A stretch of DNA of 64,000 nucleotides from Ruditapes philippinarum (taxonomy: Eukaryota): positions 124,001 to 188,000 of the forward strand of contig NW_026867019.1 in assembly GCF_026571515.1 (NCBI RefSeq), read 5' to 3'. The notes below the pieces were generated by a model. The model had not been told where the DNA came from. It saw nothing but the letters and a program-made list of their open reading frames with translations, and did not search any database. Both the position numbers and the translations under genes were made by a program. Shown here piece by piece: positions 8,006-62,300 of this stretch (position 1 is its first letter; each line of letters opens with the position of its first letter).

Positions 8006-8197
8006 TCAGCGCCACAGGAAAATTGCTTGCGGAGTAATTATCTTTCGTCCACCTCCACAAATACTGGCACCATTACCTCCCGTCCCACCTGAAGCACTAC
8101 TTCCGGCTCCACTTCCTCCCCCACCGCCCCCAGCACCTTCAGCTTGGCCTCCCTGACCACCTGCACCACCTGAATTGTTCGAGTTAGTGTTGCACAT
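8006..8197 (-). CDS. Glycine-rich microprotein family A, copy A1 (63 aa, starts MCNTNS)
   Basis: Intact ORF paralogous to 12463-12657 and 32023-32217; 5'UTR intron 8205-8425 (GTAAGT...TTGACAG); AATAAA at 7867-7872. Confidence 0.8.
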   Translation of the reverse strand: MCNTNSNNSGGAGGQGGQAEGAGGGGGGSGAGSSASGGTGGNGASICGGGRKIITPQAIFLWR

Positions 8198-8425: not shown

Positions 8426-8515
8426 CTTTATATTGAAGATTTTCTGAGTTCACACTTTATCGAAGAATACTTGCTTTACTGAAAATACAAGTTTTGTCTA
8501 CCTTATACTTTTATA
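8426..8515 (-). promoter_or_regulatory. Non-coding exon 1 and core promoter of A1
   Basis: TATAAAAG at 8515-8508, TCAGT initiator-like motif at 8482-8478, then AG|GTAAGT donor at 8425. Confidence 0.55.
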
Positions 8516-9337: not shown

Positions 9338-9440
9338 CTGGTCTGCCACACACAAGGACCAGGATCGCCATCTTCATTGTCACGTCCAATTAGGATATTC
9401 ATTCCACTGTCTTAATCAACCCAAACTCTTCCTCTACCCT
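9338..9440 (-). pseudogene. Inverted relic of a family C Gly-rich module
   Basis: Minus strand reads NILIGRDNEDGDPGP then gtggcagaccag, versus NVPSGHDGEDGEPGP...gtggcagaccag in C genes; in-frame stop upstream. Confidence 0.6.
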
Positions 9441-11413: not shown

Positions 11414-12462
11414 TATTGTGCGGCGACTGGCAATGGGACGAATCGTCACTAAAGTGGGTCGAGTCCTTGGGCATCATAACGCATCAGTTATTGATATATC
11501 TGATTTTGTTTGTAATCATCCCGGGGCATTTTGAAAATCTCAGACGTTTAATACTTCACATATTTAACTTTTTAAAAGGATATTATTGTTTCGTTAAGCT
11601 CTCATTAAACCATTTCTATGAAAGATTTGAACATTAACATATCTACAAAGCACAAGACACGACGCCATACAATGCAAAATTCAAATATATATAAAATTCA
11701 TATATACAAATTTGATTTCTATCCACACCCGACAGTTTACCGTATACTAAGAATAGTATTGTCAGGTCCTATTTCGTCTGTATCGTGTGCAATTATACAC
11801 GTGTATTTTGATAATACTGTCCGCTATATTTCAGTATTTAACTTATTCCGGGGAAAATTAAATATAATGTTGTAAGCAATTGATGTCCAAACCGTTTGCT
11901 ATATATTTATCGTTTATGACATTATCATACATATTTAAGGTGCCATAAAATAAGTTTAAACTAAACAATAAGTATTGTAATTCTATGGCGTATATAATAA
12001 TATAAAAGAAAAAAAATAACAGCATAAATGCTTCGATGCTTTTCGTATCCGAACGACTGGCCGTGTGCGATCATTGGATTCTATATGGATCAATAAGCAC
12101 CGTGAATTACATGTATGAATTGTCGATGTTGATGAAAAGAATGGTCAGGGACAATAACACACAACAATGTTATCAAAAAGGAATAAATTTATTACCATAA
12201 CATATACTTAATTTACATTATTGAATAATTACATGAGTTCATCATTTTCTGTCAAAGTTCAAACTGTCTTATGAACGCATATGATTGGTTTATACATCAG
12301 ATACCAAGTAACACAGTGCACATTTTTGATCGATATTGTTACAAATTTGTCTGTTTCAATGTTATGAAGATGATACCTGAGACAAACAAGAAGATAAGAT
12401 AATCGATATTGTTATATGAAAATGAAGTGATAGATAATAAAAGGAGCTATTAAAGTGTTTGT

Positions 12463-12657
12463 TCAACTCCATGGAAACAGGCCTGAAGGGTAGAGGTATC
12501 TTCTGCCTTCACTTCCCCATAACTTGCCGCCATGTCCACCGTTTCCACCTGGAGCATTACTCCCGGCCCCACTTCCTCCCCCACCACCTCCTGCACCAGC
12601 GGCTTTTCCTCCTTCACCTCCTGCTCCGCCTGAATTGTTTGATCCAGTATTTCCCAT
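12463..12657 (-). CDS. Glycine-rich microprotein family A, copy A2 (64 aa, MGNTGS... ends YLYPSGLFPWS)
   Basis: Intact ORF; acceptor TTAACAG at 12664-12665, donor GTAAGT at 13220; Gly triplet pattern conserved among paralogs. Confidence 0.85.
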   Translation of the reverse strand: MGNTGSNNSGGAGGEGGKAAGAGGGGGGSGAGSNAPGGNGGHGGKLWGSEGRRYLYPSGLFPWS

Positions 12658-13243
12658 TTTATTCTGTTAATTAGAACGAAGTAAATATACAATGATATCG
12701 ATGAAATGTATTTATATAACGGATAATGTACAAATATATGCATTAAGAATTGCGAATCTTAACTGAGTTTTAAACTTGTTATGTTTTAAACTGAGTAAAC
12801 AATGTTAAAGTTTTCAAGTCTACAATCTAATTAAAATCAGCTCCTAATTCAAGCTATGTATTAGATCTGATGGTCATTTCTTTGCGACCTTTTAAACAAT
12901 CAATCATCAGCGAGCTTTTACAAATTTCAATTTTGAAAGCAATGCTGTTTCTAATTTTAACCACTGGAATACCAATTCTGAGTAGGTTCATATAGCTGAC
13001 AAGTACAATTAAGGTAAGACTAATTCGGTGACAACAATATCTTAATGCAGGAAATAACGTAAGTATATATGAACTTAAGTCTGATTGCCAGACGTATTAT
13101 ATATAATTAAATTTAAATCAATAACGAGCACACTCCGATCAGCATAAAATTACACAAATAATTTAAAACTTTCGACACAATAACTTTCGATATAATATAT
13201 AAAGCTAAATCTTTACTTACAGAAAGTTATTGATATATCTTGA

Positions 13244-13527
13244 TATTATTAGTTATAACGATTGTTGACAGGTTATATGGCCCTATATAAACGGTTGTTT
13301 GTAAATATAACCCGAGCCGTCAGGCGAGGGTTATATTGCAAACAGTCGTTTATATAGGGCCATATAACCGGTCAACAACCTTTATAACGAATTTATAATA
13401 CAGCAAGCATCCTTTTTTAGAGAAAAAAGTAAGATTTCTTCATGAATCGACAAAAGACGTGTATATAAAACTATATAAACGTCACGATTATCCAATGAAA
13501 AGCGACGTTACAAACGTGCAGTATTAT
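13244..13527. mobile_element. About 280-bp palindromic insertion with 6-bp direct repeats (Crypton-like non-autonomous element; family inferred)
   Basis: Near-perfect palindrome 13252-13388; TATTAT at 13244-13249 and 13522-13527; absent from the paralogous site at ~25035. Confidence 0.7.
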
Positions 13528-14520
13528 AAGTATATATATATACTTTCCAATTCGACAATTTACTGCAAATATAAAGGTATAAATAAATATTACAAATATA
13601 ATTATATAATTGTATTTCGATTTTTCCAATCAAGTATTCTAAACGTTTTATATTGTTATTCCATTTTATATAGTTATTCAATTCAAGTATTTACCATGAC
13701 AGACAGGTACAAAATAAAATTAGTAAATTAAAATTAGTAAATAGTGATAATATCATGATCATTATGATAATTATTGATACTATATGGAAATAAACAAAAG
13801 AATGTAGAAATAAGAAATATATTTATAATGTAAACAATTCGTAAACACTTACATTTATTGTACAATTTAAACGCATTCACTGAATAATGTGTTACTTCTG
13901 TACAGCGTACTATGAATTCTGTTTTATACGGGAACACATGAATAATTGGAAAACCAATGAGCTAAATTTGGGATACAGGTATGTTACTTTGAGGAATCCA
14001 ACTTCAAAATTCAGAAAAAGATCAATTAAATTAGTTTTGAATGCTTGAAAAATTACTGATAACTGTTGCCTATTTATAGATTGGATGACGTATTTAAGAT
14101 ATCATGTCGTTTGTTATTCGGAACAATTTTAAGGGCCCTAATATGCTTCTTGGTATCTTTAATTAAGTACTAAAGTATGTACGACACATCATTATTTGAT
14201 TTGTTTCACTGAATAACTCTTTTTCAATTTCGGTAAGTTCATTTACTTTTTTTAGGTCGATCGAATAATTTTTGTCTTCTTCAGTAATATTATAGCATCA
14301 ATCACTGTTTTAATGTAACGTTCATGTATATATGCTGTCAATATATATTATAGAAAAACAAAGTTTGAAAATGCACTTGAAAAGATACAGATTTTTACCA
14401 TGATTAAATGTTAATATAATTGTCATTAGAAGTAACTTTACACCTAATAGAGAAGTTATCTTTGAAAAGTATAATTATAAAGTATGATATTTCCTTATTT
14501 AACAGTTTCCAGTGATAAAC

Positions 14521-14805
14521 ATGGGAAATAGCAACGACACAAATTATGGTGGCGGCGGCGGGGGAGGAGGTTGCAATGGTGGGGCGGGTGGTGGTGGTGG
14601 AAGTGGTGGTGGACCTGGCGGAGGAAGAGGAGGAGACGGAGGACGTCCAAGACAGAACGGTCAGGATGGTCAAGATGGTGTTAATGGCGGTGGAGGAGGA
14701 GGTGGTGGTGGAGGCGGGGCAGGAGGAGGCAGAGGGGGGAGAGGAGGTCGTGGAAGTGGAAATGGAAGAGATGGACAGAACGGACAAGATGGAAGTTATT
14801 ATTAG
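14521..14805 (+). CDS. Glycine-rich protein family B, copy B1 (94 aa, MGNSND...GQDGSYY)
   Basis: Intact ORF from ATG 14521; donor GTAAGT at 14233, acceptor AG at 14504-14505 or 14511-14512; paralog at 33436. Confidence 0.85.
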   Translation: MGNSNDTNYGGGGGGGGCNGGAGGGGGSGGGPGGGRGGDGGRPRQNGQDGQDGVNGGGGGGGGGGGAGGGRGGRGGRGSGNGRDGQNGQDGSYY

Positions 14806-16937: not shown

Positions 16938-18784
16938 ATGGATGACTGTAAAAACACAGTAATTATCACGGGATTTGGACTTGATATCAAGAAAGAGGAT
17001 TTTATCCAACATTTCAAACGTTTTGGAGAAATACAAGTATGTTTTTAGCTTCCTTTCTCTAAAGAATGTTTCGATATATTTATCAAGATTGACGTTCATT
17101 TAAGTTGATTACCTGTATTTGTGTCTTAACTTGTACAGTAAACGAACATATGCGATAGATTTCATATGAATTTCCGAACGTTTGATTTGGGTAACTTAAA
17201 TTGTAAGACCTTTACTTCACATTTATTTTAACCGAAGTTTATTTCCCTTTCCTTAGCTTGCAAAAATATTTTCTTGTTTGATTCACATAACTGTATGAAC
17301 TGAGATAAATACTATCATAATTGTTTTATGTAAACGTTAATTATTGTTAAATATGAAGATATAAATGCATACTTGTATGTATATTTACACAGAAAAGTAA
17401 CCTTGTAACTACAGGATCGGAAGGGGATAGTGACATATGCCACTCTAAAAAGCGGAACGGGCTGTAAAAGAACTTGAGGTTTTTTTTAAAAAGCATATAA
17501 ATCGCATTAAAAATAGCACTTTTATTCTGTAGCAAATTACTAACCTTAAATTGTAAATATTTTTAGTTATGATTGAAATAGGTCCGCAAATGTTACCGTT
17601 ACCGTTACCAGTTATTTTCAAACGAAATTTTTTTTTATAAAAGTAATTACGACCTCAAATGCACGTAAAAGCTTATCTTTATAAACATATAATGCTTCTT
17701 TAAAAATATTATTGCATTATTGTACATAATTTCAGGAAAAAAAATAAACGGAAATGTGATCAGAGTTAAACTGATGGACAAGTGTTATAACATCGATAAG
17801 ATTTGCAATGAAGGTAAAATAAGTTTAATTGTTTCGAGTTAATAAACTATACTTGTAAACCAATATTCGAGTCACCCTCTATGATGATATGATATCATTG
17901 CTATCAGAAAGCTTTTTATATCAAATAAATGTGTGCATGATTATTGTAAAATTGTGCTAATTTTGATGAAAGCTATGAAATCATATACATTAATCAAATA
18001 AATCCAGAGAGATTTACTTTAATAATTTACATTTACTTTAATACTTTAATATTTCTTACTTTAATAAGAAACAACGTAACGAATGATAAACAACAAAAGC
18101 TTTTATCTATTTTATTGATAGCTTAGTTTAAGCATTTTGAATTAAACTGTGTAATACAATGGGGTTTCAGATTATGGTAACAACACAACAAACAACCAAA
18201 AAGATATACCTTGTGATGAACATCACAAGAAAAAGTTTGGTGGCGGTAAAGGTGGAAAAGGAGGGACCGGAGGTTCGAACGTTCCCAGTGGACATGATGG
18301 TGAAGATGGCGAACCGGGTCCTGGGGGAAAAGGTGGTGCAGGTGGTAGACCGGCTATAACTAATCCAAACCTGGGTAAAAGAGCCTTTGAATCGAATAGT
18401 GAAAATATGAAAAACAAATATGAATGTACCGGTGGTGGAAAAGGCGGTAAAGGTGGAACCGGGGGTCGGAACGTTCCAAGTGGACATGACGGTGAGGACG
18501 GCGAACCTGGTCCTGGTGGCAAAGGTGGTGCGGGTGGCACACCAGCAGTATCAAAAAACGACTATACATGGAATGGTAACTGGAACAACGATCCATGGTA
18601 TACAAGATGGTTTGGTCTTGGAAGGCCTAATAAGAAAAACGCGCAAGAATATCATTATTCAGGTGGCGGAAAAGGTGGAAAAGGCGGAATCGGGGGTCCG
18701 AATGTTCCAAGTGGACATGACGGCGAGGACGGAGAGGCCGGTCCTGGTGGTAAAGGTGGTGCGGGTGGCAGACCAGCAGTGTGA
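16938..18784 (+). CDS. Family C copy C1: RRM + three Gly-rich modules (exons 16938-17036, 17393-17478, 17736-17813, 18171-18784); exon 2 frameshifted as assembled
   Basis: GT-AG boundaries at all exons; exons 1, 3 and 4 open; exon 2 is 86 nt versus 88 in paralogs, with several single-base indels. Confidence 0.75.
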
Positions 18785-21700
18785 CATACAACTTCAAAAC
18801 TTTGACTCCTTCGATGTTATGATGTTTTTTCGTTCTCATATATTAGTTTTTAAGATAAAAGTATAAACATCTCAAATAAAAGCAAATGTTTAGCAAAATA
18901 ATATTTATTGCCGGAATAAGGTTGTTTTCCAATGACTTAATTTTATTGTTTTGTTTCTATATCTCAATTTAAATGTAAAACAATTACATAAATAATCGAA
19001 GATTTTAACTCTCTCACATCAAACAAGAACACAGTAAAACATTGATTAATAAAATTGTGTTTTTACTCATTGAAACGAAATTCACAAGATGTGTATGATA
19101 TCTTATAGTGTGTACAGAGTATATTGATATTTGGTAAATGCAAATATATTCTGTAATATTTTGTTTTCTTGCTGATATTTACTTTTTTATTTATAGTATA
19201 TTGTGAATATTCAAACAGTATCTTGACAATGACTGCATATCGGGCGATACAGGTTTTGACTATCCTGTATTTTTGTTGATGTCACCCCTATCGTAGGCAA
19301 ACGAAAGACAGGTGGCGATGGTTATATTGAAGGACTGAACAAAACATAGAGATTTTTGAATGGGTCGGATTCTTATCAACAAAAATGAGATCTTCTCATT
19401 GTCAGAGGATTGAAATATTCTCCGAACTATTCTGATATAACATGTATTTGTAACATTGCGTCAATTTAATGATTATCAACTCGGTACAACTGATGTAAAC
19501 TAACTGTGTTGTTTCTGTATAGTTCAACTTTAAAATTATAGATTATGCGGTATCTAAAAGGATTGGCATAGTAATTAAGACTTTTCTAGTTGTTAATACT
19601 AAAATATTTATGCAAGATATTGAGATATATAAAATTCACTTGAGAGCATCAATTATAACAATACTAAAATAGTGATAATTACAGAGTCGGGTTGATTAAA
19701 ACTGTTTATCTTTAGAGATAATAACAGGTCCAACATTCATCACGTCCTCAGGCATACTTCAATTCTCAACACAAAGAGTAATGTCCATCAGTGATCCCAA
19801 AATAACATCACTATGATGAAGCTTACTATTCTATAGCTTCACAGTTTTTTTTATACATACGTGTATAATCAATGTCCCATTTTTATAAATCATATCATGT
19901 TTTACTTTATCTAAAATCAATTATTTCATATCATCTTCTTTACTTAAATAATTGAAGCTCCTTATCTTGTATCCATTATTCCAATTAAAACAAAGTTAAA
20001 CTCAAAATTAGTATTGATTTTTTTATTGTATACATCAACTTGGTCAGTGTACATGTACAGAAATTATCATTACTATCAGTAAATTGTATAAGGTATAAGG
20101 ATAAGGATATAAGGAGTATTTCTGTATAGAAAAATTAATTAAAAAAGATGTCGATGGAAGTGTCAGACACTTATGTTAATTGCTTTTGAACAATATCTTA
20201 CGGAATATGCTACCTAATTTATTGTACTAATTCTTGACGGTTCGCACTTGCATTTCTGCATTGCATTATTCTCTGTTTTATAGAACTTATAGAACAGAAA
20301 AGACTTGCAAAAATGGAGAGAAGACAACATATGAAAGCTGAAATTAATCATGAGACTCTATTGAAATGAATGTATCTAATTGTTTTAAACAGTTATTTCA
20401 ACGATATAAAACTCGAAACATGAACGTTTTAAACAAGCACGTTTTCTGTTGCTAGGTTTCCTACAAAAGGATGAATAGAATTAAAGCTTTTGGTAATTAT
20501 AAATTATTGTTTTAGGACCGTGCTTCGACATATATTATATATATAATATGCTATTGGTGGGCTTGTACATAGCCTCGTAGAATCAATCTTGTGACCAGTA
20601 TAGCATGTCATTTTACGCCATAACCATTAGGTGTCGCGGCCAAATTTTATATCATAATACACGAAGCACGAACAGACATAAACGATGATAGTTTAGTTGC
20701 TTATGAGTTAACATGACGGTTATAACATGTATAAGAGCAATATACTTTCGATACACAGAAAAAATAAAAAGTCAAAATACAGTTTCTATTGTTGCCACTA
20801 CCTTTACATTTGAACAAATTCTTTTCAATTTCGTTTTTAGATTTCTATTGATATATTATCGTAATAAAGACAAATACAGTATGAGTAAAAAACATGTCAT
20901 CCCTGTATTACAACCAGAAAAAACTTATATATAAAACCTTACATTTGTCATCTTAACAAAAAAGAGACCATATCTCATTGTTACTTAAAAAGCGACTCTT
21001 TAGTTCCTTAGAAACGATCAAATTCTGTTTTGGATTAAATATAATCGTATTTTCGTTTTTGGTTTTTAATACAATTATAAAACCACTAATGACACTTACT
21101 ACTAAAAATAGGAAACATTACCTGTGTGTATGAAACAGATAATGGTGCAATTATAGAAACACATATTTTTATAATTATAGAAACATGTCAATGAATAAAG
21201 ACATAGCTAATTCATGATTTAGATTGAAAATAGATAATATGCTTTTGGTTTCTTATCCTTAATATAGAAACAGTTAACTCAAAGGCGACACTCAATATAT
21301 AAGTCATCCTGAAAAGTCCTGTTATGTCGAGCTATAATTGTGAATATTTATGTCAAAAAGGGTAAAGGCATATGAATCTCTTTCAATCTGTGGAACAAAC
21401 TATCAACATTTGTGATTGATACCTCGCTAAATGATGATAAAAAAAGTAGTGCCCTTTTAAAGTTGAAAAAAAAAACCCTTAAAAATATTAAATTTTTTTG
21501 GAAAAAAACCCTGTCACATTTGTAAAAAACTTTGACAAATACTTTTGGGGTTTTTAAGATTTTTTTTTAAAACTATAGTTTTTTTTTTCGAAAAAAAATG
21601 AAATAATTTTATTTTAAATTTGAATTTTTTGTATGGGTGTCTGATTCTTTCTTAAAAATTTTTTGGCTTGTTTTTTTTTTGTGCTTGATTGATTTTGTTT

Positions 21701-24058
21701 ATTAAAATAAAGGGTTGTGAAAGTTTTTACTTTTGACATCTTATAAACATAACATTATAAGTACACCATATTCCAGATATAACCCCAAAAAAATCCTTTC
21801 CTAAAGGGTTTAAACCAATTACTTATATATAAGGAAGTTCAACTGAAATTTTGTTTAAAATTTAAATTTGCTATGTATGAGCTTCAAATTTTTTTATAGC
21901 TAAAAATGTTTTTTTTTTTTATTTTTTTTCCCGCAATAATCCCGATATTTTTAACCCCTTACCGCGGGGCACATGACGGGTCCTTTAAATAAACACATTA
22001 AATAGAAAATTATATTTTGTAATGTTAGAACATAATTAGTAAATAGCTAAAATTCTACATTTTTTAACTTTGTAAAAAAAAGTTGTTGCTTTAAAATTTT
22101 TCCCTATAAGAATTAAGGCGGTTTGCATTTTGTATGGAAGAGAGAACAAAGGGTTTAAAAGCCCAGGCAACTTTCAAAGGGGGGAGAAGCCAAAATACTA
22201 CTTTGATTTTTCTTTTTTGCTAGATTTTCTCCAAAAAATACTTTTTTTTTTTTTGCTACATTTTACAAATTTCCCAATAATCTACTTTCTTCAGGTGATA
22301 AATATTTAACTGTTTAACGAAGCATTTCAACGATAAAAGCTCATAATTACCTTTTCTAAAGAATGTAAAAATACTGTATCTGAGGTATAATATGCCTTTA
22401 ATATGTATTCCAAGCTATTCAATGTGTTTTAACCATATTTTCTCGCGATATATTTGAACAATGAAAGCATAAAATATACATGAAAGATGTTATGTATTCA
22501 CTATTTACGACGTATATACGTTATTTCTCTGACTATTGGACCATTTAAACTTTTTAATATAAGAATCAATTTATGGGCCTTTACTGAACGGGTTTTAAAA
22601 TATTTTTTAGTAGAGCCTTAACATTAAATTCCTTGTTTAATTAATTTAAAATCCCTTTTAAATAAAGAAGATTAATCTATTATTCTTAACACTTCGTTCA
22701 CGATCTTTATAACAAGGTAAATTATCCCTTGATAAAAATTGGTATTATTTATGGTTTAATATATACCCCTTTGAGCAGTTTCATTTGTATCGTAAATTCC
22801 GTAAACCTTAAAGCTATTGACGTCGCTGCAGGTTCTAATAACATATAGGTTTATGGCACCTACCAGTTCCTACCTTTAATCTATGTGAAGACGTCCAGAA
22901 ACGTTTCCTAAACTTTTACTATTTAATTATTGACAAATATATGGCCAGCCAAAATTACAAAACAATACAGTTCAATCGTTTTTTGTAACTTAGTTTTTTA
23001 TACTTAATTTATATAGATATATCTGTTGAATATTTGTTTACTACTGTTAAAATATATCTTCATCTCCAACACCCTGATTAATTTATACTTTATTGGAACC
23101 TTAAGTCAAAGACAGACACATATTTAACTCTTTAAAGGGTTATTTCTCTTAGGTTAAGCTCTCAATAAACACCATTTCTATAAAAGATTTGAAAATTTGC
23201 ATATCTACAAAACACAAGGCACGAAGCCATACAATGCATTACATGGCGACCTAGAATTTAGCAAAACGATTTCATACAGTCAAATTTGATAACTATCTAC
23301 ACCCGAAAGTTTACTGTATACAAAGAATAGAATTGTCATGTCTTATTTCTTCTGTATCGTGTACAATTATACACAGTGTTTCAGTTTGATAACCCCCCTA
23401 CTGGCCCGTTTATATTTTCCTGTATTTAATATATTCCGGGGAAATTTTTAAATCTAATATTGGTCAGCAAAATTTGATGTCCAAACCATTTGCTTTCGGT
23501 AATAATATTTATCGTTTATTGATATTATTATACATATTTTAAGGTTCCATAAATAAGTTTAAATAACCTATAAGTATTATAAATCTATGATGTATATAAT
23601 AATATATGAGCAAAATAACAGCTCAAAATGCCGTAAATGCTTTTATTATCCGATAACGACTGGCCCGTGTGGCATAATTTGGAATAATAAGCACTGTGAA
23701 TTATATTTATGAATGGTCAGAATGTTGTATGAAAACAATGGTTAGGGACAATAACAACAAATGCTATCCAGAAAAGGAATGAATTTATTACCATAACATA
23801 TACTTAATTAACATTATTGAATAATTACATAAATTCACCATTTTCTATCAAAGTTCAAAAACGTTTTATATACGCATATAATTGGTTTATAAATCAGATA
23901 CCAAGATACCAGCGCACATTTTTGATCGATATTGTTACAAAATTGTCTGTTTCAATGTTATGAAGATTATTCCTGAGACAAACAAGAAGATAAGATAATC
24001 GATATTGTTATATAATAATGAAGTGATTGATAATAACAAAAGCTAATAAATTGTTTAT

Positions 24059-24240
24059 TTAACTCCATGGAAACACGCCTGAAGGGTTGATTTATTTTTT
24101 GCCTTCACTTGTGCCGCCATTTCCACCGTTTCCGCCCGGAGCAGTACTCCCGGCCCCACTTCCTCCTCCACCACCTCCCTGCACCCGGGCTTGTCCTCCT
24201 TGGGCCACCTGGGTCCGGAATTGTTTATCAATTTTTTCCA
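24059..24240 (-). pseudogene. Family A copy A3, no ATG and frameshifted as assembled
   Basis: GGGGGGSGAGSTAPGGNGGNGG core and PSGVFPWS* tail retained; the 5' part lies in homopolymer-rich, low-quality-looking sequence. Confidence 0.65.
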
Positions 24241-25414
24241 AAAAATTTTTTTTCTGTTTTAAAAAAGAATGAAACAAAAGTACAATGATATCGTGATTAT
24301 AATATTATATTCCCAAAAAAGAAAATATATGCTTGGATTTGTTAATTAAACTTGTTATGTTTTAAAAATGGGGTTAAAAACGTTTAAATTTTAAAATCTA
24401 AAGAATTTTGATTTAAAACAAAACTCCTAATTAAAAACCCTATTATTAGTTTGACGGGCCCAATAAAGGCGGGCTTTGGGGGACTTTTAACAAAACATTT
24501 AACGGCGGCTTTCACAAATTTTTTAAAAGGGGAGCTGTTTTTTAAAAGTTTAAACCCTTTAAAAACCCCTACTGGGTAGGTTTCCCAAAAGCCCACAAGT
24601 AAAACTGGCAAAACATTTCCCCCCTTGGGGCCCCTCTAAGGGGTTTCTAGTTTTTTTTGTAAAAAAAAAAAGGTTTTTAAGAAAATCAAACAATTTTGTT
24701 TTTTAAATTCCCCACCGGGAAAAGCCCGGGTATTTTGATACCTCGTCTAATCCCTATGTGTTAATGACTGTTTGAATGCATGGCTAAAATTCCTTTAGCA
24801 GGAAATCCGAATTACAGTGAAGGTGGTAAGACAAATTCGGTGACAATCAGATTTACACGCAAGATGTAACTTTAGTATATATGAACTTTAGTCATTATAT
24901 TACATACAATTAAATTTAAATCAATATGGTGCACACTCCAGTTATCATAAAATTACACAATTTATTAATAACAATCGATATAATATATAAAGCTGACACA
25001 CGTCATTACTTACAGAAAGGTTTTGATATATCTTGATATGTATAAATATATATTATACTTTCCGATTCGACGAATTACTGTAAATATATAAAATATATAT
25101 TACAAATACAACTATATCATTGTATTTTATTTTTTTCCAATCAAGTATTGTAATCCAGTTTTGTATAGTTATTCCATTTGCAATTATTTTACATGACAGA
25201 CAGTTACAAAATAACAGTAGTACATAGAAGTTAGTGCATAGTGATAATATTATGATCATTACAATAATTATTGATACTATATGGAAAGAAAACAAAAGAA
25301 TGGGTGATAACGGCTCGGGTGATATAAAATCTTAACAGGTAATATATCCACATATATCACTCCAAAACCAAAATAACATATAATATTTGAATATTGCAGG
25401 AAATAAACAGAAAC

Positions 25415-27318
25415 ATGGATGACTGTAAAAACACTGTAATTGTCACGGGATTAGGACTTGATATCAAGAAAGAGGATGTTATCCAACATTTCAAACGTTT
25501 TGGAGAAATACAAGAATGTTTTAGTTTCCTTTCTCTAAATAATATTTCGATATATTTATCAAGGTTGACGTTCATTTAAGATCATTTCCTTTGTTTGTGT
25601 CTTATCTTGTATAGTACACGAATGTTTTACCTGTATTTGTGTCTTATCTTGAATAGTAAACGAACAAATCACTACATTCACCGCGACGGATATCATGTGA
25701 TATACATGTCTTTCTCCCGAACCTTTAATTTGAGTAACTTAAATTGTAAGACTTATACTTCACATTTATTTTAACAGCAGTTTATTTTCCTTTCCTTAGC
25801 ATACAGCATATAAAAAGCACATTTTATTTTCTTGTTTGATCCTCATCTCCACACATAACTGTATGGAAAGAGATAAATACTATCATTATTGTTATGTATA
25901 CGTTAAGTATTGTCAAATATGAAGATCTGAATGCACACTTGTATGTATATTTACACAGAAATGTAACCTGGTAACTACAGGATCGGAAGGGATAGTGACA
26001 TTTGCCGACTCTAAAACTGCGGAAGAAGCTGTAAAAGAACTTGACGGTATTTGTTTTTTGGCATAATAAAACAGCATTAAAATTGTTGAACTAATATATT
26101 ACTGTATGCAAATCTGTCTGGTCTTAAAAATTGTAACTATGTTTCAGTTATGATTGAAATAGGTCCGCAAGATTTCAAAAATGTTACCGTTACCAGTTAT
26201 TTTCAAACGAAATTTTTTTTTATAAAAGTAATTACGACCTCAAATGCACGTAAAAGCTTATCTTTATAAACATATAATGCTTCTTTAAAAATATCATTGC
26301 ATTATTGTACATAATTTCAGGAAAAGAAATAAACGGAAATGTGATCAGAGTTAAACTGATGGACAAGTGTTATAACATCGATAATATTTGCAATGAAGGT
26401 AAACCAAGTTTAATTGTTTCGAGTTAATATTTTCTTCAGACTAAACTATACTTGTAAAACCAATATTCGAGTCATCCTGCTAACAAAAAGCTATTTATAT
26501 CAAATAAATGTGTACATGATTATTGTAAACTTGTGCTAATTTTGATGAAAGCTTGAAATCATATACATAAATCAAATAAATCCAGAGTATATTACTTTAA
26601 TAAGAAACAACGTAACGAATGATAAACAACAAAAGCTTTTATCTATTTTTATTGATACCTTAGTTTAAGCATTTTGAATTAAACTGTGTAATACAATGGG
26701 TTTTCAGATTATGGTAACACAACAAACAACCAAAAAGATATACCTTGTGATGAACATCACAAGAAAAAGTTTGGTGGCGGTAAAGGTGGAAAAGGAGGGA
26801 CCGGAAGTTTGAACGTTCCCAGTGGACATGATGGTGAAGATGGCGAACCGGGTCCTGGGGGAAAAGGTGGTGCAGGTGGTAAACCGGCTATAACTAATCC
26901 AAACCTGGGTAAAAGAGCCTTTGAATCGAATGGTGAAAATATGAAAAACAAATATGAATGTATCGGTGGTGGAAAAGGCGGTAAAGGTGGAACCGGGGGT
27001 CGGAACGTTCCAAGTGGACATGACGGTGAGGACGGCGAACCTGGTCCTGGTGGCAAAGGTGGTGCGGGTGGCAGACCAGCAGTATTAAAAAACGACTATA
27101 GATGGAATGGTTACTGGAACAACAATCCGTGGTATACAAGATGGTTTGGTCTTGGAAGGCCGAATAAGAAAAACGCGCAAGAATATAATTATTCAGGTGG
27201 CGGAAAAGGTGGAAAAGGCGGAATCGGGGGTCTGAATGTTCCAAGTGGACATGACGGCGAGGACGGAGAGGCCGGTCCTGGTGGTAAAGGTGGTGCGGGT
27301 GGCAGACCAGCAGTGTGA
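25415..27318 (+). CDS. Family C copy C2: RRM + three Gly-rich modules, 291 aa if spliced (exons 25415-25513, 25959-26046, 26321-26398, 26708-27318); first donor reads GA instead of GT
   Basis: Exons 99+88+78+611 nt join in frame: MDDCKNTVIVTGLGLDIKKEDVIQHFKRFGEIQ-KCNLVTTGSEGIVTFADSKTAEEAVKELD-GKEINGNVIRVKLMDKC...-DYGNTTNN...GGRPAV*. Confidence 0.8.
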
Positions 27319-30300
27319 CATACAACTTCAAAACTTTGACTCCTTCGATGTTATGGTGTTTTTTCGTTCTCATATATTAGTTTTTAAGATAAAAGTATAA
27401 ACATCTCAAATAAAAGCAAATGTTTAGCAAAATAATATTTATTGCCGGAATAAGGTTGTTTTCCAATGACTTAATTTTATTGTATTGTTTCTATATCTCA
27501 ATTTAAATGTAAAACAATTACATAAATAATCGAAGATTTTAACTCTCTCATATCAAACAAGAACACAGTAAAACATTGATTAATAAAATTGTGTTTTTAC
27601 TTATTGAAACGAAATTCACAAAATGTGTATGAGATCTTGTAGTCTGATAGGAAACCCGTGTACAGAGTATATTGATATTTGGTAAATGCAAATATATTCT
27701 GTAATATTTTGTTATATTGCTGATATTTACTTTTTTATTTATAGTATATTGTGTATATTCAAACAGTATCTTGACAATGACTGCATATCGGGCGATACAG
27801 GTTTTGACTATCCTGTATTTTTGTTGATGTTACCCCTATCGTAGGCAAACGAAAGACAGATGGCGATGGTTATATTGAAGGACTAAACAAAATATAGAGA
27901 TTTTTGAATGGGTCGGATTCTTATCAACAGACATGTGATCTTTTCATTGTCAGAGGATTGAAATATTCTCCGAACTATTCTGATATAACATGTATTTGTA
28001 ACATTGCGTCAATTTAATGATTATCAACTGGGTATAACTGATGTAAACTAATTGTGTTGTTTCTGTATAGTTCAACTTTAAAATTATAGATTATGCGGTA
28101 TCTAAAAGGGTTGGCATAGTAATTAAGACTTTTCAGTTGTTAATACTAAAATATTTATGCAAGATATTAAGATATATAAAATTCCCTTGAGAGCATCAAT
28201 TATAACAATACTAAAATAGTGATAATTACAGAGTCGGTTTGATTAAAACTGTTTATCTTTAGAGATAATAACAGGTCCAACATTCATCACGTTCTCAAGC
28301 GTAATTCAACACAAAGAGTAATGTCTATCAGTGATCCCAAAATAACATCACTATGATGAAGCTTACTATTCTATAGCTTCACAGTTTTTTATACATACGT
28401 GTATAATCAATGTCCCATTTTTATAAATCATATAATGTTTTATTTTATTTAAAATCAATTATTTCATATCATCATCTTTACTTAAAAAATTGAAGCTCCT
28501 GATATTGTATCCAATATTCCAATTAAAGCAAAGTTAAACTCAAAATTAGTATTTAATTCATATGGTAGACATCAACTTGGTCAGTGTACATTTACAGAAA
28601 TTATTATTACTGGTGATTTAGTTAAATCAGAAAATTGTATAAATTATAAGGATAAGGATATAAGGAGTATCTCTGTATAGAAAATTAAATTAAAAAAAGA
28701 TGTCAAAGGAAGTGTCAGACACTTATGTTAATTGCTTTTGAAACAGAAATATCAAACAATATCTTACGGAATATGCTACCTTATTTATTGTACTAATTCT
28801 TGACGGTTCGCACCTGCATTTCTGCATTGCATTATTCTCTGTTTTATAGAACAGAAAAGACTTGCAAAAATGGAGGGAAGACAAAATATGAACGCTGAAA
28901 TTAATCTTGAGACTCTATTGAAATAAATGTATCTAATTGTTTTAAACAATAATTTCAACGATATAAAACTCGAAATATGACCGTTTTAAACAAGCACGTT
29001 TTCGGTTGCTATGTATCCTATAAAAGGAAGAATAGAATTAAAACTTTTGACAGTTGTAAATGATTGTTTTAAGAACCGTGCACCGACATATATGATATAT
29101 ATAATATGCTATTGGTGGGCTTGTACATATCTCGTAGAATCAATCTTGAGACCGGTATAGCGTGTCATCATACGTCATAACTATTAAGGGTCGCGGCCAA
29201 ATTTCCATATCAAAATACACGAAACACGAACAGACATAAAGATGATAGTTTAGTTGCTTTTGATTATAAGAGCAATATACTTTCGTTACACAGAAAAAAA
29301 GACGTCTAGAAACTTTAGTCAAAATACAGTTCCTAGTGTTGCCACTACCTTTACATTTGAACAAAGTCGTTTCAATTTCGTTTTCAGATTTCTATTGATA
29401 TATTATCGTAATAAAGACAAATACAGTATAAATAAAAAAACATGTCATCCCAGTATTACAACCAGAAAACCCTTATTATATTAAACCTTACATATGTCAT
29501 CTTAACAAAAAAAGAGACCACATCTCATGTTAAATTAAAAAATACTCTTTAGTTCCTTAGAAACGATCAAATTCTGTCTTGGATTAAATATATATTTTTT
29601 TTTCGTTCTAGGTTTTTAATACAATTATAATTCCACTAATGACACTTGTACTAAAAATAGGAAATATTACGTGTGTATAACAGATAATGGTGCAATTATA
29701 GAAACACATGTATTTATAATTATAGAAACATGTCAATGAATAAAGAAATACCTTATTCGTGATTCAGATTGAAAATAGATAATATGTTTTTGGTTTCTTA
29801 TCCTAAATATAAAAACAGTTAACTGAAACATTAGTCATCCTGAAAATTCCTGTTATGTCGAGTGATAATTGTGAATATTTATGTCAAAAGGGTAAAGATA
29901 TATGAATCTAAATGGCTAAATGATGATAATAAACTAGTATGTGTCCGTTATACGATATACCTATAGATAATAAAATACTTTTGGCAAAAGCTGTCACAGT
30001 AATCCAGTTATTATGTACTTACGCACCTGTCGGGTCCTTTAATAAACACATTAGCATAACTTAATAAATAATTCCTACATTTTTACAATTGTGAAAGAAA
30101 TAGTTGTTGCATTAAAATATTATCCTATAAGAATTAAAGCGCTTTAGCATTTTGTATGGAAGACGAGAACAAAGATTAACAAGACCAAGGCAACGTTCAT
30201 AGGGCGGAGGAAGTCAAAATAGTACTTTTGTTTCATTTTGCTACTTTTATGACAAATAATTTCCACTTCAACACTACTTTCTTCAGGTAATAAGTATTAA

Positions 30301-32022
30301 ACTGTTTCAAAAAAATATTTTAACGATAAAAAAACTCCTAATTGCCTTTTCTAAAGAATGAAAATAATGTTGTTTCTCAGGTATAATATGCCTTTAATAT
30401 GTATTCCAAGCTTTTCAATATGTTTTAACCATATTTTCACGCGATAAATTTGAACAATGAAAGAATAAAGTATACAAGAAAGATGTTATGTATTCATATT
30501 TACGACGTATGAACGTTATTTCTCTGAATATTGGACTACATTTAAACTTTGTAATATAAAAGGTCAATTATCGGCACTTCTCACTTCAATGATTTGTTCT
30601 CTACTTGTTTTGTAGAGCCATTGCTTAATGCAACGCTATAATTTATTATTCTTAACACTTCGTTCTCTCGTTTATAACAAGGTAAATTATCCCTTGATAA
30701 AAACTTGGGATTAGTTATGGTTTAAGTCAAGAGGAGTTTCATTGTACCGTTAGTTCCGTAGACGTTATAGCTATTGACACCGCTGTGGGTTCTAATAACA
30801 TATACTATTAGGTTTATGCCGCCTATCAGTATCTACCTTTAATTTATGTGAAGACGTCCTAAAACGTGACAAAGATTTCCTAAACTTTTACTATTTGATT
30901 ATTGACAAATATAATTATGGCCAGTCAAAATTACAAAATAATACAATTCAAACGTTTTTTTTCTTAACTTCTTGAATATCTTAGTTTTGTATTCTTATTT
31001 TATATAAATATATCTGTTTATATTTGTTTACTACTGTTTAAATATATCTTCATCTCCAACACCCTGATTAATTTATACTTTATTGGAACCTTAAGTCAAA
31101 GACAAACACATATTTAACTCTTATAAAGGATATTACTGTTTAGTTAAGCTCTCAATAAACCATTTCTATAAAAGATTTGAACATGTACATATCTACAAAA
31201 CACAAGACACGACGACATACAATGCATTATGGCGACCTAGAATTTGGCAAAACGATTTTATACAGTCAAATTTGATTACTATCCACACCCGACAGTTTAC
31301 CGTATACTAAGAATAGAATTGTCATGTCTTATTGTTTCTGTATCGTGTACAATTATACACGTGTAGTTTGATATTACTGCCCCGTAATATTTCTGTATTT
31401 AATATATTCCGGGGAAATTAAATTTAATGTTGTAAGCAATTGATGTCCAAACCATTTGCTTTTGCTATATATTTATCGTTTATGATATTATTATACATAT
31501 TTAAGGTGCCATAAAATAAGTTTAAACTAAACTACTAGTAAAAGTATTATAAATCTATGATGTATATGATAATATATGAGAAAAATAACAGCACAAATGC
31601 TTAGATGCTTTTATTATCCGAACGACTGGCCGTGTGCGATAATTGGGATCAATAAGCACTGTGAATTACATTTATGAATTGTCGATGTTGATGAAAAGAA
31701 TGGTCAGGGACAATGACACACAACAAAGTTATCAAAAAGGAATGAATTTATTACCATAACATATACTTAATTTACATTATTAAATAATTACATAAATTCA
31801 CAATTTCCTATCAAAGTTTAAAAACGTTTTATATACGCATATGATTGGTTTATAAATCAGATACCAAGTAACACAGTGCACATTTTTGATCGATATTTTT
31901 ACAAATTTGTCTGTTTCAATGTTGTGAATATGATACCTGAGACAAACAAGAAGATAAGATAATCGATATTGTTATATGATAATGAAGTGATTGATAATAA
32001 AAGAAGCTAATAAAGTGTTTGT

Positions 32023-32217
32023 TCAACTCCATGGAAACACGCCTGAAGGGTAGAGGTATTTTCTGCCTTCACTTCCCCATAACTTGCCGCCATTTCCACC
32101 GTTTCCGCCTGGAGCCTGACTCCCAGCCCCACTTCCTCCTCCACCACCTCCGGCACCAGGGGCTTGTCCTCCTTGACCACCAGCTCCGCCTGAATTGTTT
32201 GATCCAGAATTCCCCAT
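32023..32217 (-). CDS. Glycine-rich microprotein family A, copy A4 (64 aa, MGNSGS...)
   Basis: Intact ORF, acceptor at 32224-32225; the upstream non-coding exon seen in units 1 and 2 appears deleted near 32560. Confidence 0.75.
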   Translation of the reverse strand: MGNSGSNNSGGAGGQGGQAPGAGGGGGGSGAGSQAPGGNGGNGGKLWGSEGRKYLYPSGVFPWS

Positions 32218-33435: not shown

Positions 33436-33705
33436 ATGGGAAATAGCAACGGCACAAATTATGGTGGTTACGGCGGGGGAGGAGGTTGGAAAGGTTGGGC
33501 AGGTTGGGGTGGTGGAGGTGGTGGTGGACCTGGCGGAGGGAGAGGAGGAGACGGGGGACGTCCAGGACAGGACGGTCAGGATGGTCAAGATGGTGTTAAT
33601 GGCGGTGGAGGAGGAGGTGGTGGAGGCGGGGCAGGAGGAGGCAGAGGGGGGAGAGGGGGTCATGGAAGTGGAAATGGGAGAGATGGACACAACGGACAAG
33701 ATTGA
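33436..33705 (+). CDS. Glycine-rich protein family B, copy B2 (89 aa)
   Basis: Paralog of B1; a GGA>TGA change at 33703 removes the terminal GSYY; three Trp codons in the N-terminal Gly segment. Confidence 0.75.
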   Translation: MGNSNGTNYGGYGGGGGWKGWAGWGGGGGGGPGGGRGGDGGRPGQDGQDGQDGVNGGGGGGGGGGAGGGRGGRGGHGSGNGRDGHNGQD

Positions 33706-36539: not shown

Positions 36540-38640
36540 ATGAATGACTGTAAAAACACTGTAGTTCTCACGGGATTAGGAAGTGATATCAAGAAAGAGG
36601 ATTTTATCCAACATTTCAAACGTTTTGGAGAAATACTAGTATGATTTTAGCTTCCTTTCTCTAAATAATATCTCGATATATTAATCAAGACTGGTGTTCA
36701 TTTAAGTTTATTACCTGTGTCTTATCTTGTTTAAATAACGAACATATCACTACATTCGCCGCGACAGATTTCATATGATACACATGTCTTTCATTTGGGT
36801 AACTTAAATTGTAAGACATATACTTAACATTTATTTTAACAGCAGTTTATTTTCCTTTCCTTAGCATACTAAAACATATTTTCTTGTTTGATCCTCATCT
36901 CCACACATATCGTATGGACTGAGATAAATACTTTCATTATTGTTTTATGTATACGTTAAGTATTGTTAAATATGAAGATATAAATGCATACTGGTATGTA
37001 TATTAACACAGAAATGTAACCTGGTAACTACAGGATCGGAAGGGAGAGTGACATATGCCGACTCTAAAACTGCGGAAAAGGCTATTAAAGAACTTGATGG
37101 TAATTATTTTATAGCATAATAAAACAGCATTAAAATTTTTGCATTAATATATTACTGTATGCGAATCAGCCTAGCCTTAAATATGGTTACTATATTTCAG
37201 ATATGATTAAAAATAAGTCCGCAATATTTAAAACTGTTACCGATGTGTGCACTACTTATTTACAAACGAAAACCAAGATAATTAAAAATCATATAAAAGT
37301 AATAACGACCCTTAATAGACTTAAAAAACCTTATCTTAATAAACAATATAATTTTATGTCAATTCGAATGCTTCTTATTCTTAATATTTTTGCATTATTG
37401 TACATGGTTTCAGGAAAAGAAATAAACGGAAATGTGATCAAAGTTAAAGTGATGGACAAGTGTCATAACAACGATAATATTCACGATGCAGGTAAAAAAA
37501 GTTAAATGGTTTCGACTAATATTCCGAATATTTGAGTCATCCTCTGATTATATGAAATCATTGCTATCAATAAGCTATTTATATATAAATGTTTACGTAA
37601 TTATTATAAAATTATGCCAATTGTGATGAAAGCCATGAAATCATATACATACATCAAATAAATCTAGAGTTTATTACTTTAATAAGAAACAACGTAACGA
37701 ATAATAAACAACACAAGCTTTTATCTATTTTAATTGATAGCTTAGTTGAATTAAATTAAAGTTGAATTAAACTGTGTAATACAATAGGGTTTCAGATTAT
37801 GGTAACAACACAACAAACAACCAAAATGATTGACATTGTGATGAACACCACAAAAAAAACTTTGGTGGCGGTAAAGGTGGAAAAGGAGGCATCGGAAGTT
37901 CGAACGTTCCAAGTGGAAATGATGGTGAAGATGGCGAACCGGGTCCTGGGGGAAAAGGTGGTGCAGGTTGTTAACCGGCTATAACTAATCCAAAACTTGG
38001 TAAAAGGGCCTTTGAATCATATGATGGATTGGCTAATAATATGAAGAACAAATATGAATGTTCCGGTGGTGGAAAGGGTGGTAAAGGTGGAATCGGGGGT
38101 CCGAACGTTCCGTGTGGACATGACGGTGAGGACGACGAGCCTCGTCCTGGTGGTAAAATTGGTGACGGTGGTAGACCAGCGGTATCAAAAAATGACTATA
38201 CATGGAATGGTAACAGGAACAACGATCCATGGTTTACAAGATGGTTTGGTATTGGAGGGCCTAAAACGACAAATGAGGAAGAACATAATTCATCAGGAGA
38301 CGGAAGAGGTGGAAAAGGCGGAGTAGGTTACAATAATGTTCCAAGTAGACATGACAGTGAGGACTGCGAACCTGGTCCTGGTGGTAAAGGTGGTGCAGGT
38401 GGCACACCAGCAGTGTCGAAAAATGCCTATACACGGAATGGTAACTGGAACAACGATCCATGGTATACAAGATGGTTAGGTATTAGAGGGCCTAAAAAGA
38501 CAAACGAGCAAGAACATAATTCTTCAGGCGGTGGAAAAGGCGGAGTAGGTTACAATAATGTTCCAAGTGGACATAAGGGTGAAGACGGAGAGGCCGGTCC
38601 TGGTGGCAAAGGTGGTAGGGGTGGTAGACCTGCAATGTGA
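36540..38640 (+). CDS. Family C copy C3: intact RRM exons (36540-36638, 37012-37099, 37414-37491), last exon 37796-38640 with stops at 37831 and 37972; four Gly-rich modules
   Basis: All splice sites canonical; the spliced product ends after 100 aa; the downstream frame is open from ATG 38041 to 38640. Confidence 0.75.
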
Positions 38641-60811: not shown

Positions 60812-62300
60812 ATTTATTTATTTATTTTAGTCTCATCTGTGTACAATTACATATATTTCAAAATAAAAGATAAACATTACATTGTACATAGCCATTCTTT
60901 AAGTAGAATTACAGGAGACTTAAGATATTTTACATATTTTACAATTAAAACCATATTCTGTTATGTTATGGGCATATGTATGTGTATATATGAAATATAT
61001 GCACATATATATGCAGATATATTACACATTAAAATTAAATGCATATTAAAACATCACATAATATCCACTGTAAAATCTGCCAATAGTGACAGCTCTAATA
61101 AAAGTTCACTATTAAAAGGTAACAGCTTAAATGAAAGCTCACTATTAAAAAGTAAAAATGTGCATCTTTATGATATTATTTGTCTAGAGGTTATCTTTGA
61201 TTATGGAGTGGTCTAATTGGCAGAATTTACCTTGTTAATACAGAATGCAACTCAGTATACATTAAAACATGATAGTTCATATTTAAACTGATATAAACAT
61301 GATAAAATACAGTCCAATTTTGTTAAGAAATAAAATATGTCATAGCAAGTCAGTTGTGAAGACAATTATTACAATAGTTTTATATACAAACATCCGACTT
61401 TCACTAAATGGTAAGAAGAATACATAAAAAAGAAAAATTAAAAATATGAGAGTTTGTTAAAATATTTAAAATTTGACTGGAGGCAAACCAATAATTTTAA
61501 GTTTAAATTTTATAATTCTAAGTCTATATTGTGTTAACATTGCTATTATACAGAGTGTTATTTCGAAGTTTTAATATATTGCAGCAGGTTTTTGCTAATG
61601 TACGTATCATTTCTGGGTGGGTAAACAAAAATAGAAACTTATCAATATCAGTAAGTAATTCAAAATTTGTATTTAATATAACTGCCTTTTCTAAAAGTAA
61701 ATTCCTATCAACAGAGTAAGTTGGACATTTCAATAACACATGGATTTCGTTTTCCACCAAGTCTTTGCAAAATGGACACACTCTTTCAGATTCAGGTAAT
61801 CTTTCATAACGCCCAGTTTCTAGTCGAAGTGGTGCTACGCCACATCTAAATTTTGCTAACGCAGATCTATGTGCATATGGTAATTGTAATTTACAATATG
61901 TTTCAACTTCATAATTAGTTTTTAAAAGTTTGTATGTCCTTAATTTATTACGACCTGTGCCATTAACACTTGTCACTCGATCAATATCTGTTCTCCATTG
62001 CAAAATATGAGCATCAACAATAGCATTTGTCATATCAGACACGAGATTTTTACGATGGAAAGGTGGTTGAATATAGGATGCTAAATTATAAGAAACTAAC
62101 TTATTCTTTACCAAGAATGGCCAATTTTTACACCTATTACTACTTTTAGACAAAGCCCAATCAAATATTCTCTTATTGGTTCTACGAATATCATAATTAC
62201 AACATCGGTACCAGTGATTACATATAGCTTTCCACTGGTCAACAGTTATTGGATTCCAACCCATATCTCCTTGTATAGCTGCATTTGGTGTATATTTACC
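60812..62300 (-). mobile_element. 5'-truncated non-LTR retrotransposon (ORF2 C-terminus, RTEX/CR1-group-like) with 3'UTR
   Basis: Open frame to the stop at 61524 with LAKFRCG..PLRLETGRY and CPFC...ENEIHVLLKC knuckle; (TAAA)n tail at ~60812-60830; candidate TSD ATGTAT at 60806-60811 and 62301-62306. Confidence 0.85.

What the first reader, a model, noticed from the sequence alone, without database searches (positions are those of the whole stretch)
12463..12657. Family A microproteins: myristoylation-type N-terminus, three Gly segments, aromatic tail
Seen: A2 (MGNTGS) and A4 (MGNSGS) fit the M-G-x-x-x-S N-myristoylation consensus. The core GGAGGxGG / GAGGGGGGSG / PGGNGGxGG keeps its Gly positions while X positions vary, and both end in KLWGSEGR(R/K)YLYPSG(L/V)FPWS. 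Inference: a 64-aa membrane-tethered peptide too small to fold alone, so likely oligomeric; short enough to be missed by annotation pipelines.
Basis: partly seen in the sequence, partly recalled or inferred. Interest (0 to 1): 0.7.

Follow-up and report, generated by a model that had tools for sequence, protein, structure and literature searches.

The report
Unannotated clam glycine-rich microprotein family
A clam gene cluster encodes spliced, selected 62-64-residue proteins, absent from the protein collection searched, whose fixed glycine spacing and nearly always kept Met-Gly start suggest they are likely fatty-acid-anchored and would pack together into polyglycine bundles on membranes.

Summary
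The ORF is real: 12463-12657 (minus strand), 64 aa, as described. It is the coding exon of a three-exon gene in a Manila-clam cluster. Spliced contigs and an in-frame stop five codons upstream make Met-Gly-Asn the true start, with no signal peptide. Six paralogs lie on this contig (five intact, two outside the window; dN/dS 0.04-0.47), and none of the five is in a 15-billion-protein collection. Seven unnamed outside homologs keep the three-segment glycine core, and all start MG[NT] although the linker length varies and their scores do not depend on it. Gly2 holds in 11 of 12, Ser/Thr6 in 8 of 12; paralog A1 has Cys2. The aromatic tail is not a family feature. Best reading: a likely N-myristoylated unit of three polyglycine-II helices (GGX, all-Gly, GGX) that would need partners to bury its all-Gly helix, so it would assemble on membranes, perhaps with the neighbouring Gly-rich B and RRM-fused C proteins. 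Acylation, fold, oligomer and tissue are untested; folds were low-confidence. Main rival: loricrin-like intracellular structural proteins.

The parts
12463..12657 (-). A2 coding sequence, 64 aa: MGN start, 9-residue linker, GGX segment (res 10-17), Gly-run segment (21-32), GGX segment (37-44), aromatic tail
12658..12666 (-). CAG splice acceptor (exon starts at 12663) and 6 nt before the ATG; A at -3 and G at +4
13221..13562 (-). A2 exon 2, non-coding; begins with TAA (closes the upstream ORF) and carries an in-frame TAA 5 codons before the main ATG; interrupted in this assembly by a MITE-like insert
   Evidence: joints; translation
13243..13529 (.). MITE-like repeat with internal inverted repeat inside exon 2; skipped in X3 contigs; adds 3 upstream ATGs if retained
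   Evidence: (I6)
13853..13900 (-). A2 exon 1, non-coding (5' end not mapped); upstream ATG at 13876 in weak context giving an 8-codon uORF; TATAAAA at 13928-13922
12188..12462 (-). A2 3' UTR up to the first AATAAA, 270 nt after the stop (end not mapped)
   Evidence: depth over the matching A4 3' UTR
32023..32217 (-). A4 paralog, 88% identical; this assembly's copy lacks exon 2; exon-1 donor at 32701
8006..8197 (-). A1 paralog, 63 aa, starts Met-Cys-Asn; exon 2 at 8426-8478 with an in-frame TAA; exon-1 donor at 8902
24059..24240 (-). A3 copy with no usable start and an internal stop; lies in a kilobase with 21 homopolymer runs (others of 20001-32000: 1-19, median about 4), so it may be an assembly error rather than a pseudogene
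14521..14805 (+). B1, 94-aa Gly-rich protein starting MGNSND, head-to-head with A2
33436..33705 (+). B2, 89 aa, head-to-head with A4; non-coding first exon, joints 33033 or 33093 -> 33421 (GT..AG)
16938..18784 (+). C1: RRM exons plus a last exon with three Gly-rich modules (GGX, GXX, GGX; no Gly run of 5 or more)
25415..27318 (+). C2: RRM + three Gly modules; matches NCBI XP_060577261.1 (P0001)
36540..38640 (+). C3: RRM + four Gly modules, with stops in the 5' part of the last exon

Best explanation
Family A genes are spliced, selected clam genes for cytosolic 62-64-residue proteins that are likely N-myristoylated on Gly2 and whose three glycine segments are predicted to form polyglycine-II helices that would pack with other copies into bundles on a membrane face. 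Steps: (1) shown: non-coding 5' exons, one coding exon, Met-Gly-Asn as the start, no signal peptide. (2) Inferred: Met removal and myristoylation. (3) Inferred from sequence rules: two GGX helices flank an all-Gly helix, which in solved bundles is buried by up to six neighbours, so three helices are a sub-unit that needs homo- or hetero-partners (A, B or the C repeats). (4) Inferred: myristate alone binds weakly, so oligomer avidity and, in A2/A4, the Trp/Tyr/Phe tail supply the second membrane signal. (5) Inferred: the variable tail gives each paralog its partner or membrane specificity. My odds by step: protein-coding 0.95, acylation of A2 0.65, polyglycine-II core 0.65, assembly given that fold 0.7.
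For: Selection and frame. Start site: joints and in-frame stop; A1 also has an in-frame stop 4 codons upstream; exon-2 loose ends at the A4 locus begin with TAA. Gly2: 11 of 12 A-family sequences and both B proteins. The 7 outside homologs (6 of them at weak E-values, 4e-3 to 0.7) all start MG[NT] while the first GGxGGxGG begins at residue 5, 8 or 10; masking residues 1-3 leaves all 7 under the E=1 cut-off and moves the score by under 1 bit in 6 of 7. A core profile built from clam paralogs without the N-terminus scores each of the 7 above 1000 of 1000 within-block shuffles, and scores B and C negative. Register: GGxGGxGG, 2-3 residues, G[AG/S]GGGGG[SC]G[AG]G, 4 residues, GGxGGxG. Two consecutive GGX is the motif rule for Gly-rich PPII bundles (PMC13243192, passages); Gly content rises with neighbour number and all-Gly helices are fully surrounded (bioRxiv 2023.11.25.568672, parts 1-3 of 4). 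Two-signal model: PMC13690689, passage. The A2 tail has the best interface score of the 14 sequences tested, -4.8 kcal/mol per 11-mer on a recalled Wimley-White scale.
Against: A1 has Cys2 yet is spliced and under selection. Ser/Thr6 is in only 8 of 12, and Gly2 with Ser/Thr6 in 7 of 12; no member has the Lys/Arg7 that NMT favours (PMC7048800, passages). G at +4 of a strong start context favours Gly2 by itself, and NatA acetylation competes for Gly termini. For P0013 the Met was chosen by alignment (residue 33 of the record). The outside homologs are related to each other, come from about 5 unnamed assemblies and have no genomic context. AlphaFold2 models were low-confidence (mean pLDDT 53.6 and 56.7) and matched no solved fold, so the polyglycine-II fold rests on sequence pattern only. 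Some plant Gly-rich proteins with similar motifs give only transient PPII in simulation. The tail is not conserved, and P0011/P0014/P0015 have little interface signal. The tissue of expression is unknown.
Confidence: 0.38

Rival explanations
1. Intracellular structural proteins of a hardening or barrier epithelium, working like vertebrate loricrin/SEDC proteins: flexible glycine loops between cross-linkable ends (Gln/Lys, Tyr/Trp, Cys). Met-Gly-Asn would be kept for start context or stability, not lipidation.
For: Gene form matches: tandem cluster, non-coding 5' exons, one coding exon, Gly/Ser bias, no signal peptide (SEDC described in PMC5366951, passages). Very uneven coverage among runs: summed contig depth in the thousands over A exons in X3, X4 and X7 (a poor measure of expression), against about 2-6 reads per strand in raw RNA runs X22-X24. 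Cys occurs in the tails of A1, A5, A6, P0010 and P0012.
Against: Core spacing is almost free of indels across paralogs with saturated dS and outside homologs, which fits a fold better than a loop; loricrin-type repeats vary in length (recalled). No sequence homology to any named protein was found.
Confidence: 0.25
2. An acylated but disordered regulatory microprotein: myristate, a flexible Gly spacer and a short tail that binds a membrane protein or seeds a condensate with the RRM-bearing C proteins; no stable bundle.
For: Low pLDDT throughout; tails differ between paralog groups while a K[LI]WG[ST]/FGSE motif recurs in A2, A4, P0005, P0010 and P0012; C proteins join an RRM to related Gly modules in the same cluster.
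Against: A spacer would not need 20 invariant glycines in a fixed GGX register; between paralogs the core is more constrained than the tail.
Confidence: 0.2
3. Glycine-rich antimicrobial or antifungal peptides released from haemocytes or epithelia without a signal peptide.
For: Short, 37-41% Gly, duplicated and variable among runs; Gly-rich antimicrobial peptides exist in other invertebrates (recalled).
Against: No signal peptide or propeptide; net charge only +1 to +2, and -1 in P0005; purifying, not diversifying, selection.
Confidence: 0.1
4. Not a protein gene: a chance ORF in a duplicated non-coding exon, or another frame is the coding one.
For: Not annotated; A2/A4 coding identity (91.8%) equals their 3' UTR identity (92.3%); no proteomic evidence.
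Against: Third-position bias p=5e-6 and dN/dS well below 1; each of the five other frames has a stop in at least one of the 5 paralogs; outside homologs keep the protein pattern.
Confidence: 0.03

Closest known systems
Glycine-rich polyproline/polyglycine-II helical bundles (snow flea antifreeze proteins, Obg, phage S16 gp38, ALK/LTK glycine-rich domain, PE_PGRS PGRS domain)
   Same: GGX triplet segments joined by short turns, plus an all-Gly run like the buried helices of gp38 and ALK
   Different: Only three segments per chain, against 6 to 14 in the solved bundles listed in the paper read; cytosolic, with a Met-Gly start; no sequence or fold match found
N-myristoylated proteins (NMT substrates such as ARFs and Src-family kinases)
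   Same: Initiator Met followed by Gly-Asn/Thr, Ser/Thr6 in most members, cytosolic synthesis
   Different: No Lys/Arg7 and no basic cluster; no folded signalling domain; one paralog has Cys2; acylation untested
Amniote SEDC genes / loricrin
   Same: Tandem cluster, single coding exon, Gly/Ser-rich, no signal peptide
   Different: No homology found; much shorter; fixed core register; mollusc; tissue unknown
Family C of the same cluster (NCBI XP_060577261.1, 'uncharacterized LOC132734522'; related records named 'PE-PGRS-like')
   Same: Three-segment Gly modules with GGX first and last segments; same tandem array
   Different: C has an N-terminal RRM (PF00076), a GXX middle segment instead of an all-Gly run, and no Met-Gly start; the A-core profile scores it below its shuffles

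Membership tests
N-myristoylated proteins | Gly directly after the true initiator Met | tested here: met
   A2: spliced 5' UTR with in-frame stop; Gly2 in 11 of 12 family members, (A1 fails)
N-myristoylated proteins | Ser/Thr at position 6 (recalled consensus) | tested here: inconclusive
   Met in A2 and A4; 8 of 12 in the family; 5.4% chance in A2 shuffles
N-myristoylated proteins | Basic residue at position 7 (favourable, not essential) | tested here: not met
   Asn, Thr or Gly at 7 in all 12; role of aa7
N-myristoylated proteins | Second membrane signal | tested here: inconclusive
   0-1 Lys/Arg in residues 2-20; aromatic tail favourable in A2/A4/P0005, weak in others
N-myristoylated proteins | Covalent myristate detected | not testable with these tools
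   needs mass spectrometry or click labelling
Gly-rich PPII helical bundle | Segments of two or more consecutive GGX | tested here: met
   Residues 10-18 and 37-45 of A2; rule
Gly-rich PPII helical bundle | All-Gly helix for a buried position | tested here: met
   Gly x6 at residues 23-28 of A2; G24-G28 invariant in 12 of 12
Gly-rich PPII helical bundle | Six or more PPII helices in one chain, as in the solved examples | tested here: not met
   Three segments only against 6-14; membership would need an oligomer
Gly-rich PPII helical bundle | Confident model or solved structure with the bundle | tested here: inconclusive
   pLDDT 53.6 and 56.7; no fold match
SEDC / loricrin-like | Clustered genes, single coding exon, Gly/Ser-rich, no signal peptide | tested here: met
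SEDC / loricrin-like | Homology to EDC proteins | tested here: not met
   No named homolog; no Pfam family
SEDC / loricrin-like | Expression in a cornifying epithelium and cross-linking | not testable with these tools
   runs are coded; tissue not given
Secreted Gly-rich antimicrobial peptides | Signal peptide and precursor processing | tested here: not met
   5' exons non-coding; best 19-residue hydropathy -0.09 for A2
PE_PGRS | N-terminal PE domain | tested here: not met
   No Pfam hit for A, B or the C last exons; the NCBI names on C records appear to reflect composition only (inference)

The most novel reading that the evidence does not exclude
The cluster encodes a kit for a lipid-anchored polyglycine-II lattice: myristoylated A (GGX / all-Gly / GGX) and B (all-Gly plus GXX) subunits, made from a shared head-to-head promoter, polymerise on a cytosolic membrane face, and the C proteins, whose modules have only edge-type GGX and GXX helices, cap the lattice and bring RNA to it through their RRM. 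This would be a polyglycine-II assembly built from sub-domain microproteins, unlike the single-chain bundles in the review read here.
Probability: 0.1. Interest if true: 0.85.

Novelty: new variant of a known kind. Interest (0 to 1): 0.5.

Why it matters
It is a conserved, selected microprotein family that annotation passed over while calling its neighbours. If the reading holds, it is a minimal three-helix polyglycine-II unit that folds only by assembly and is tied to membranes by a lipid, a combination not among the single-chain bundles in the review read here. A 64-residue synthetic peptide makes an open question in that review (chain orientation and packing in polyglycine-II assemblies) directly testable. 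Even under the rival reading it points to a loricrin-like gene cluster in a bivalve.

Tried and rejected
Signal peptide on an upstream exon: suspected from the acceptor 6 nt before the ATG, rejected because the RNA joints give non-coding exons with an in-frame stop. N-terminal extension from the ATG at 13876: in frame only if exon 2 is skipped; no direct exon 1-to-3 joint was listed in the 4 runs, but this assembly's A4 copy lacks exon 2, so it stays open for that haplotype. Family C as a secreted prohormone: rejected, it is an RRM protein. Overlapping ORFs 12450-12743 (-) and 12471-12674 (+): not kept across paralogs. Trimer prediction of A2: no answer (score 0.02 in both runs, mark 0.32, alignment not used); it is evidence neither way. 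AlphaFold2 monomers: low confidence; fold searches empty. PDB sequence search: 14 hits at E<=10; the 3 alignments shown are Gly-Ser linkers. Single-sequence homolog search: 0 of 120 candidates. P0006 dropped as an unrelated 1296-aa repeat ORF. Prokaryote genomes and metagenomes: 603, 596 and 604 pattern matches, none confirmed. ESM Atlas gave no result. No RNA holder listed on record as RNA. Own-genome search with P0014: nothing, though cluster members align to it locally, so these searches are lower bounds. Earlier scan notes: none. Literature: searches (listings only) showed no paper on this family; subscription papers and supplementary expression tables were not seen and could list these loci as unigenes or lncRNA. 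PMC12057185, PMC6317481 and PMC12858966 (passages) did not state the position-6 consensus, which is therefore recalled.

Full report
Setting. The window is G000:C15506:124001-188000 of a 1.4 Gb genome. A neighbouring protein is named by NCBI as Ruditapes philippinarum XP_060577261.1 on a contig of the same length, 197,984, so the host is taken to be the Manila clam.

Observation. The ORF at 12463-12657 (minus) is as described, and so is A4 at 32023-32217. A search with A2 found 4 copies in the genome, all in the window. Reading 60 kb upstream and 10 kb downstream found two more intact paralogs, A5 and A6, at contig 111259-111447 and 120790-120978; a search with A6 found no copy outside the cluster (counts are lower bounds). 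A3 is broken but sits in a homopolymer-rich kilobase that looks poorly polished.

It is protein-coding. In the 35-codon core of the 5 intact paralogs, variable columns fall 7/5/28 on codon positions 1/2/3 (p=5e-6), and 17 of 20 invariant glycines vary at the third base. dN/dS is 0.04-0.47 in the 6 of 10 pairs where dS is not saturated; A2/A4 alone is not significant (p=0.13). None of A1, A2, A4, A5, A6, B1 or B2 is in the 15-billion-sequence collection by exact look-up, and no named protein of 34-126 aa was returned; longer fused forms were not searched.

The start is Met-Gly-Asn. Every copy has a CAG acceptor 6-8 nt before the ATG, so an upstream signal-peptide exon had to be excluded. Contigs of run X3 (RNA by guess, but with CT..AC joints) give three exons: 13853 upward, 13562-13221 and 12663 downward; a contig of X2 identical to 12504-12663 leaves the genome at the acceptor. 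Exon 2 opens with TAA, closing an 8-codon uORF, and has an in-frame TAA five codons before the main ATG. A1 has the same layout with its own in-frame stop. A MITE-like insert lies in exon 2 of this assembly and is skipped in the X3 contigs. The assembly's A4 copy lacks exon 2, which would allow a 10-residue extension from the weak upstream ATG; contigs laid on A4 carried exon-2 sequence instead. Coverage differs greatly among the 7 runs laid: thousands of summed contig depth in X3, X4 and X7, tens to a hundred in X2, and near background in raw runs X22-X24. Contig depth is a poor measure of expression and tissues are not given.

Relatives. A profile of A1/A2/A4 against 1.84 billion representatives gave 2 hits: P0005 (72 aa, E 1.9e-5) and one unrelated repeat ORF, dropped. 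A 6-sequence profile gave 7 hits at E<=1 among 7977 scored: P0005 and P0010-P0015, all unnamed. Six have weak E-values, so I tested them: a core profile from clam paralogs without the N-terminus scores each above 1000 of 1000 within-block shuffles, while B and C score negative; P0010 and P0012 also share the K[LI]WG[ST] motif with A2. Three share a longest-contig length, which suggests another tandem cluster (inference). Their organisms are unknown; no prokaryotic or metagenomic relative was confirmed.

The myristoylation claim. In one Gly-rich protein the match is weak (5.4% of shuffles). The family evidence is better: Gly2 in 11 of 12, with all 7 outside hits starting MG[NT] (P0013 from its Met33), although the linker to the core varies and masking residues 1-3 leaves all 7 under the E=1 cut-off. 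Against: A1 has Cys2; Ser/Thr6 is in 8 of 12; nobody has Lys/Arg7, which NMT favours (PMC7048800, passages); G at +4 is also favoured by start context (recalled). I put acylation of A2 at about 0.65. Myristate needs a second signal for stable binding (PMC13690689, passage). A2 has no basic cluster or transmembrane stretch, but its tail scores -4.8 kcal/mol on a recalled interface scale. That tail is particular to A2/A4 and not a family feature.

The core. The invariant part is GGxGGxGG, a 2-3 residue turn, a Gly run in G[AG/S]GGGGG[SC]G[AG]G, a 4-residue turn, and GGxGGxG. Repeated GGX is the sequence rule for Gly-rich polyproline-II bundles (PMC13243192, passages). In solved bundles (6-14 helices) Gly content rises with the number of neighbours and all-Gly helices are fully surrounded (bioRxiv 2023.11.25.568672, parts 1-3 of 4). 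Three segments cannot bury an all-Gly helix, so if this fold is right the protein needs partners. This is inference: AlphaFold2 gave pLDDT 53.6 and 56.7 and no fold match, and some Gly-rich plant proteins hold such helices only transiently.

Neighbours. B genes sit head-to-head with A2 and A4, also have a non-coding first exon and start MGN, with all-Gly, GGX and GXX segments. C genes join an RRM to three or four modules of GGX, GXX and GGX with no Gly run. A, B and C are all covered deeply in X3 and barely in X22 and X24. This suggests, but does not show, a shared assembly; the A-core profile does not recognise B or C.

Comparison and verdict. It works most likely like a lipid-anchored piece of a polyglycine-II bundle; it is not a member of any named family (no Pfam hit; no PE domain; no signal peptide). 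The gene form also matches amniote SEDC/loricrin genes (PMC5366951, passages), the main rival. Searches (listings only) showed no paper on the family; supplements were not examined. Real and unannotated gene family: high confidence. Full mechanism: 0.38. Interest 0.5; a new variant of a known kind.

Noticed in passing
window 16938-18784, 25415-27318, 36540-38640 (+); contig 95570-106486: Family C: RRM fused to repeated Gly modules separated by Trp/Tyr-rich spacers (WYTRWFG); further RRM-less or partial copies lie upstream on the contig (P0003).
   Followed up: partly
window 14521-14805 and 33436-33705 (+): Family B: unannotated 89-94 aa, 56-57% Gly proteins starting MGN, head-to-head with A genes; B2 has two alternative first-exon donors.
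   Followed up: partly
window 8006-8197 (-): A1 starts Met-Cys-Asn; an N-terminal Cys could be acylated or act as an oxygen-dependent degron (recalled), a possible change of regulation after duplication.
   Followed up: partly
window 13243-13529: Abundant MITE-like element inserted into A2's 5' UTR exon, absent from X3 contigs; adds three upstream ATGs.
   Followed up: partly
window 24001-25000: Homopolymer-rich, error-like sequence around A3; possible unpolished assembly.
   Followed up: partly
window 43016-48259 (-): Uninterrupted 1747-aa ORF that looks like a BEL/Pao LTR retrotransposon polyprotein (motifs read by eye, recalled).
   Followed up: no
window 54917-55849 (-): 310-codon Cys-rich exon with laminin-EGF repeats (PF00053), MEGF/scavenger-receptor-like.
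   Followed up: no
window 61524-62264 (-): 246-aa ORF resembling the C-terminal end of a non-LTR retrotransposon protein (recalled); no Pfam hit above cut-off.
   Followed up: no
window 9355-9401 (-): Short inverted fragment resembling the family C module just upstream of A1 (I10/I11).
   Followed up: no
G000:C15506:87935-104529: 8.3-kb tandem duplication at 96.6% identity, each copy with a C-like fragment; recent duplication or merged haplotypes.
   Followed up: no
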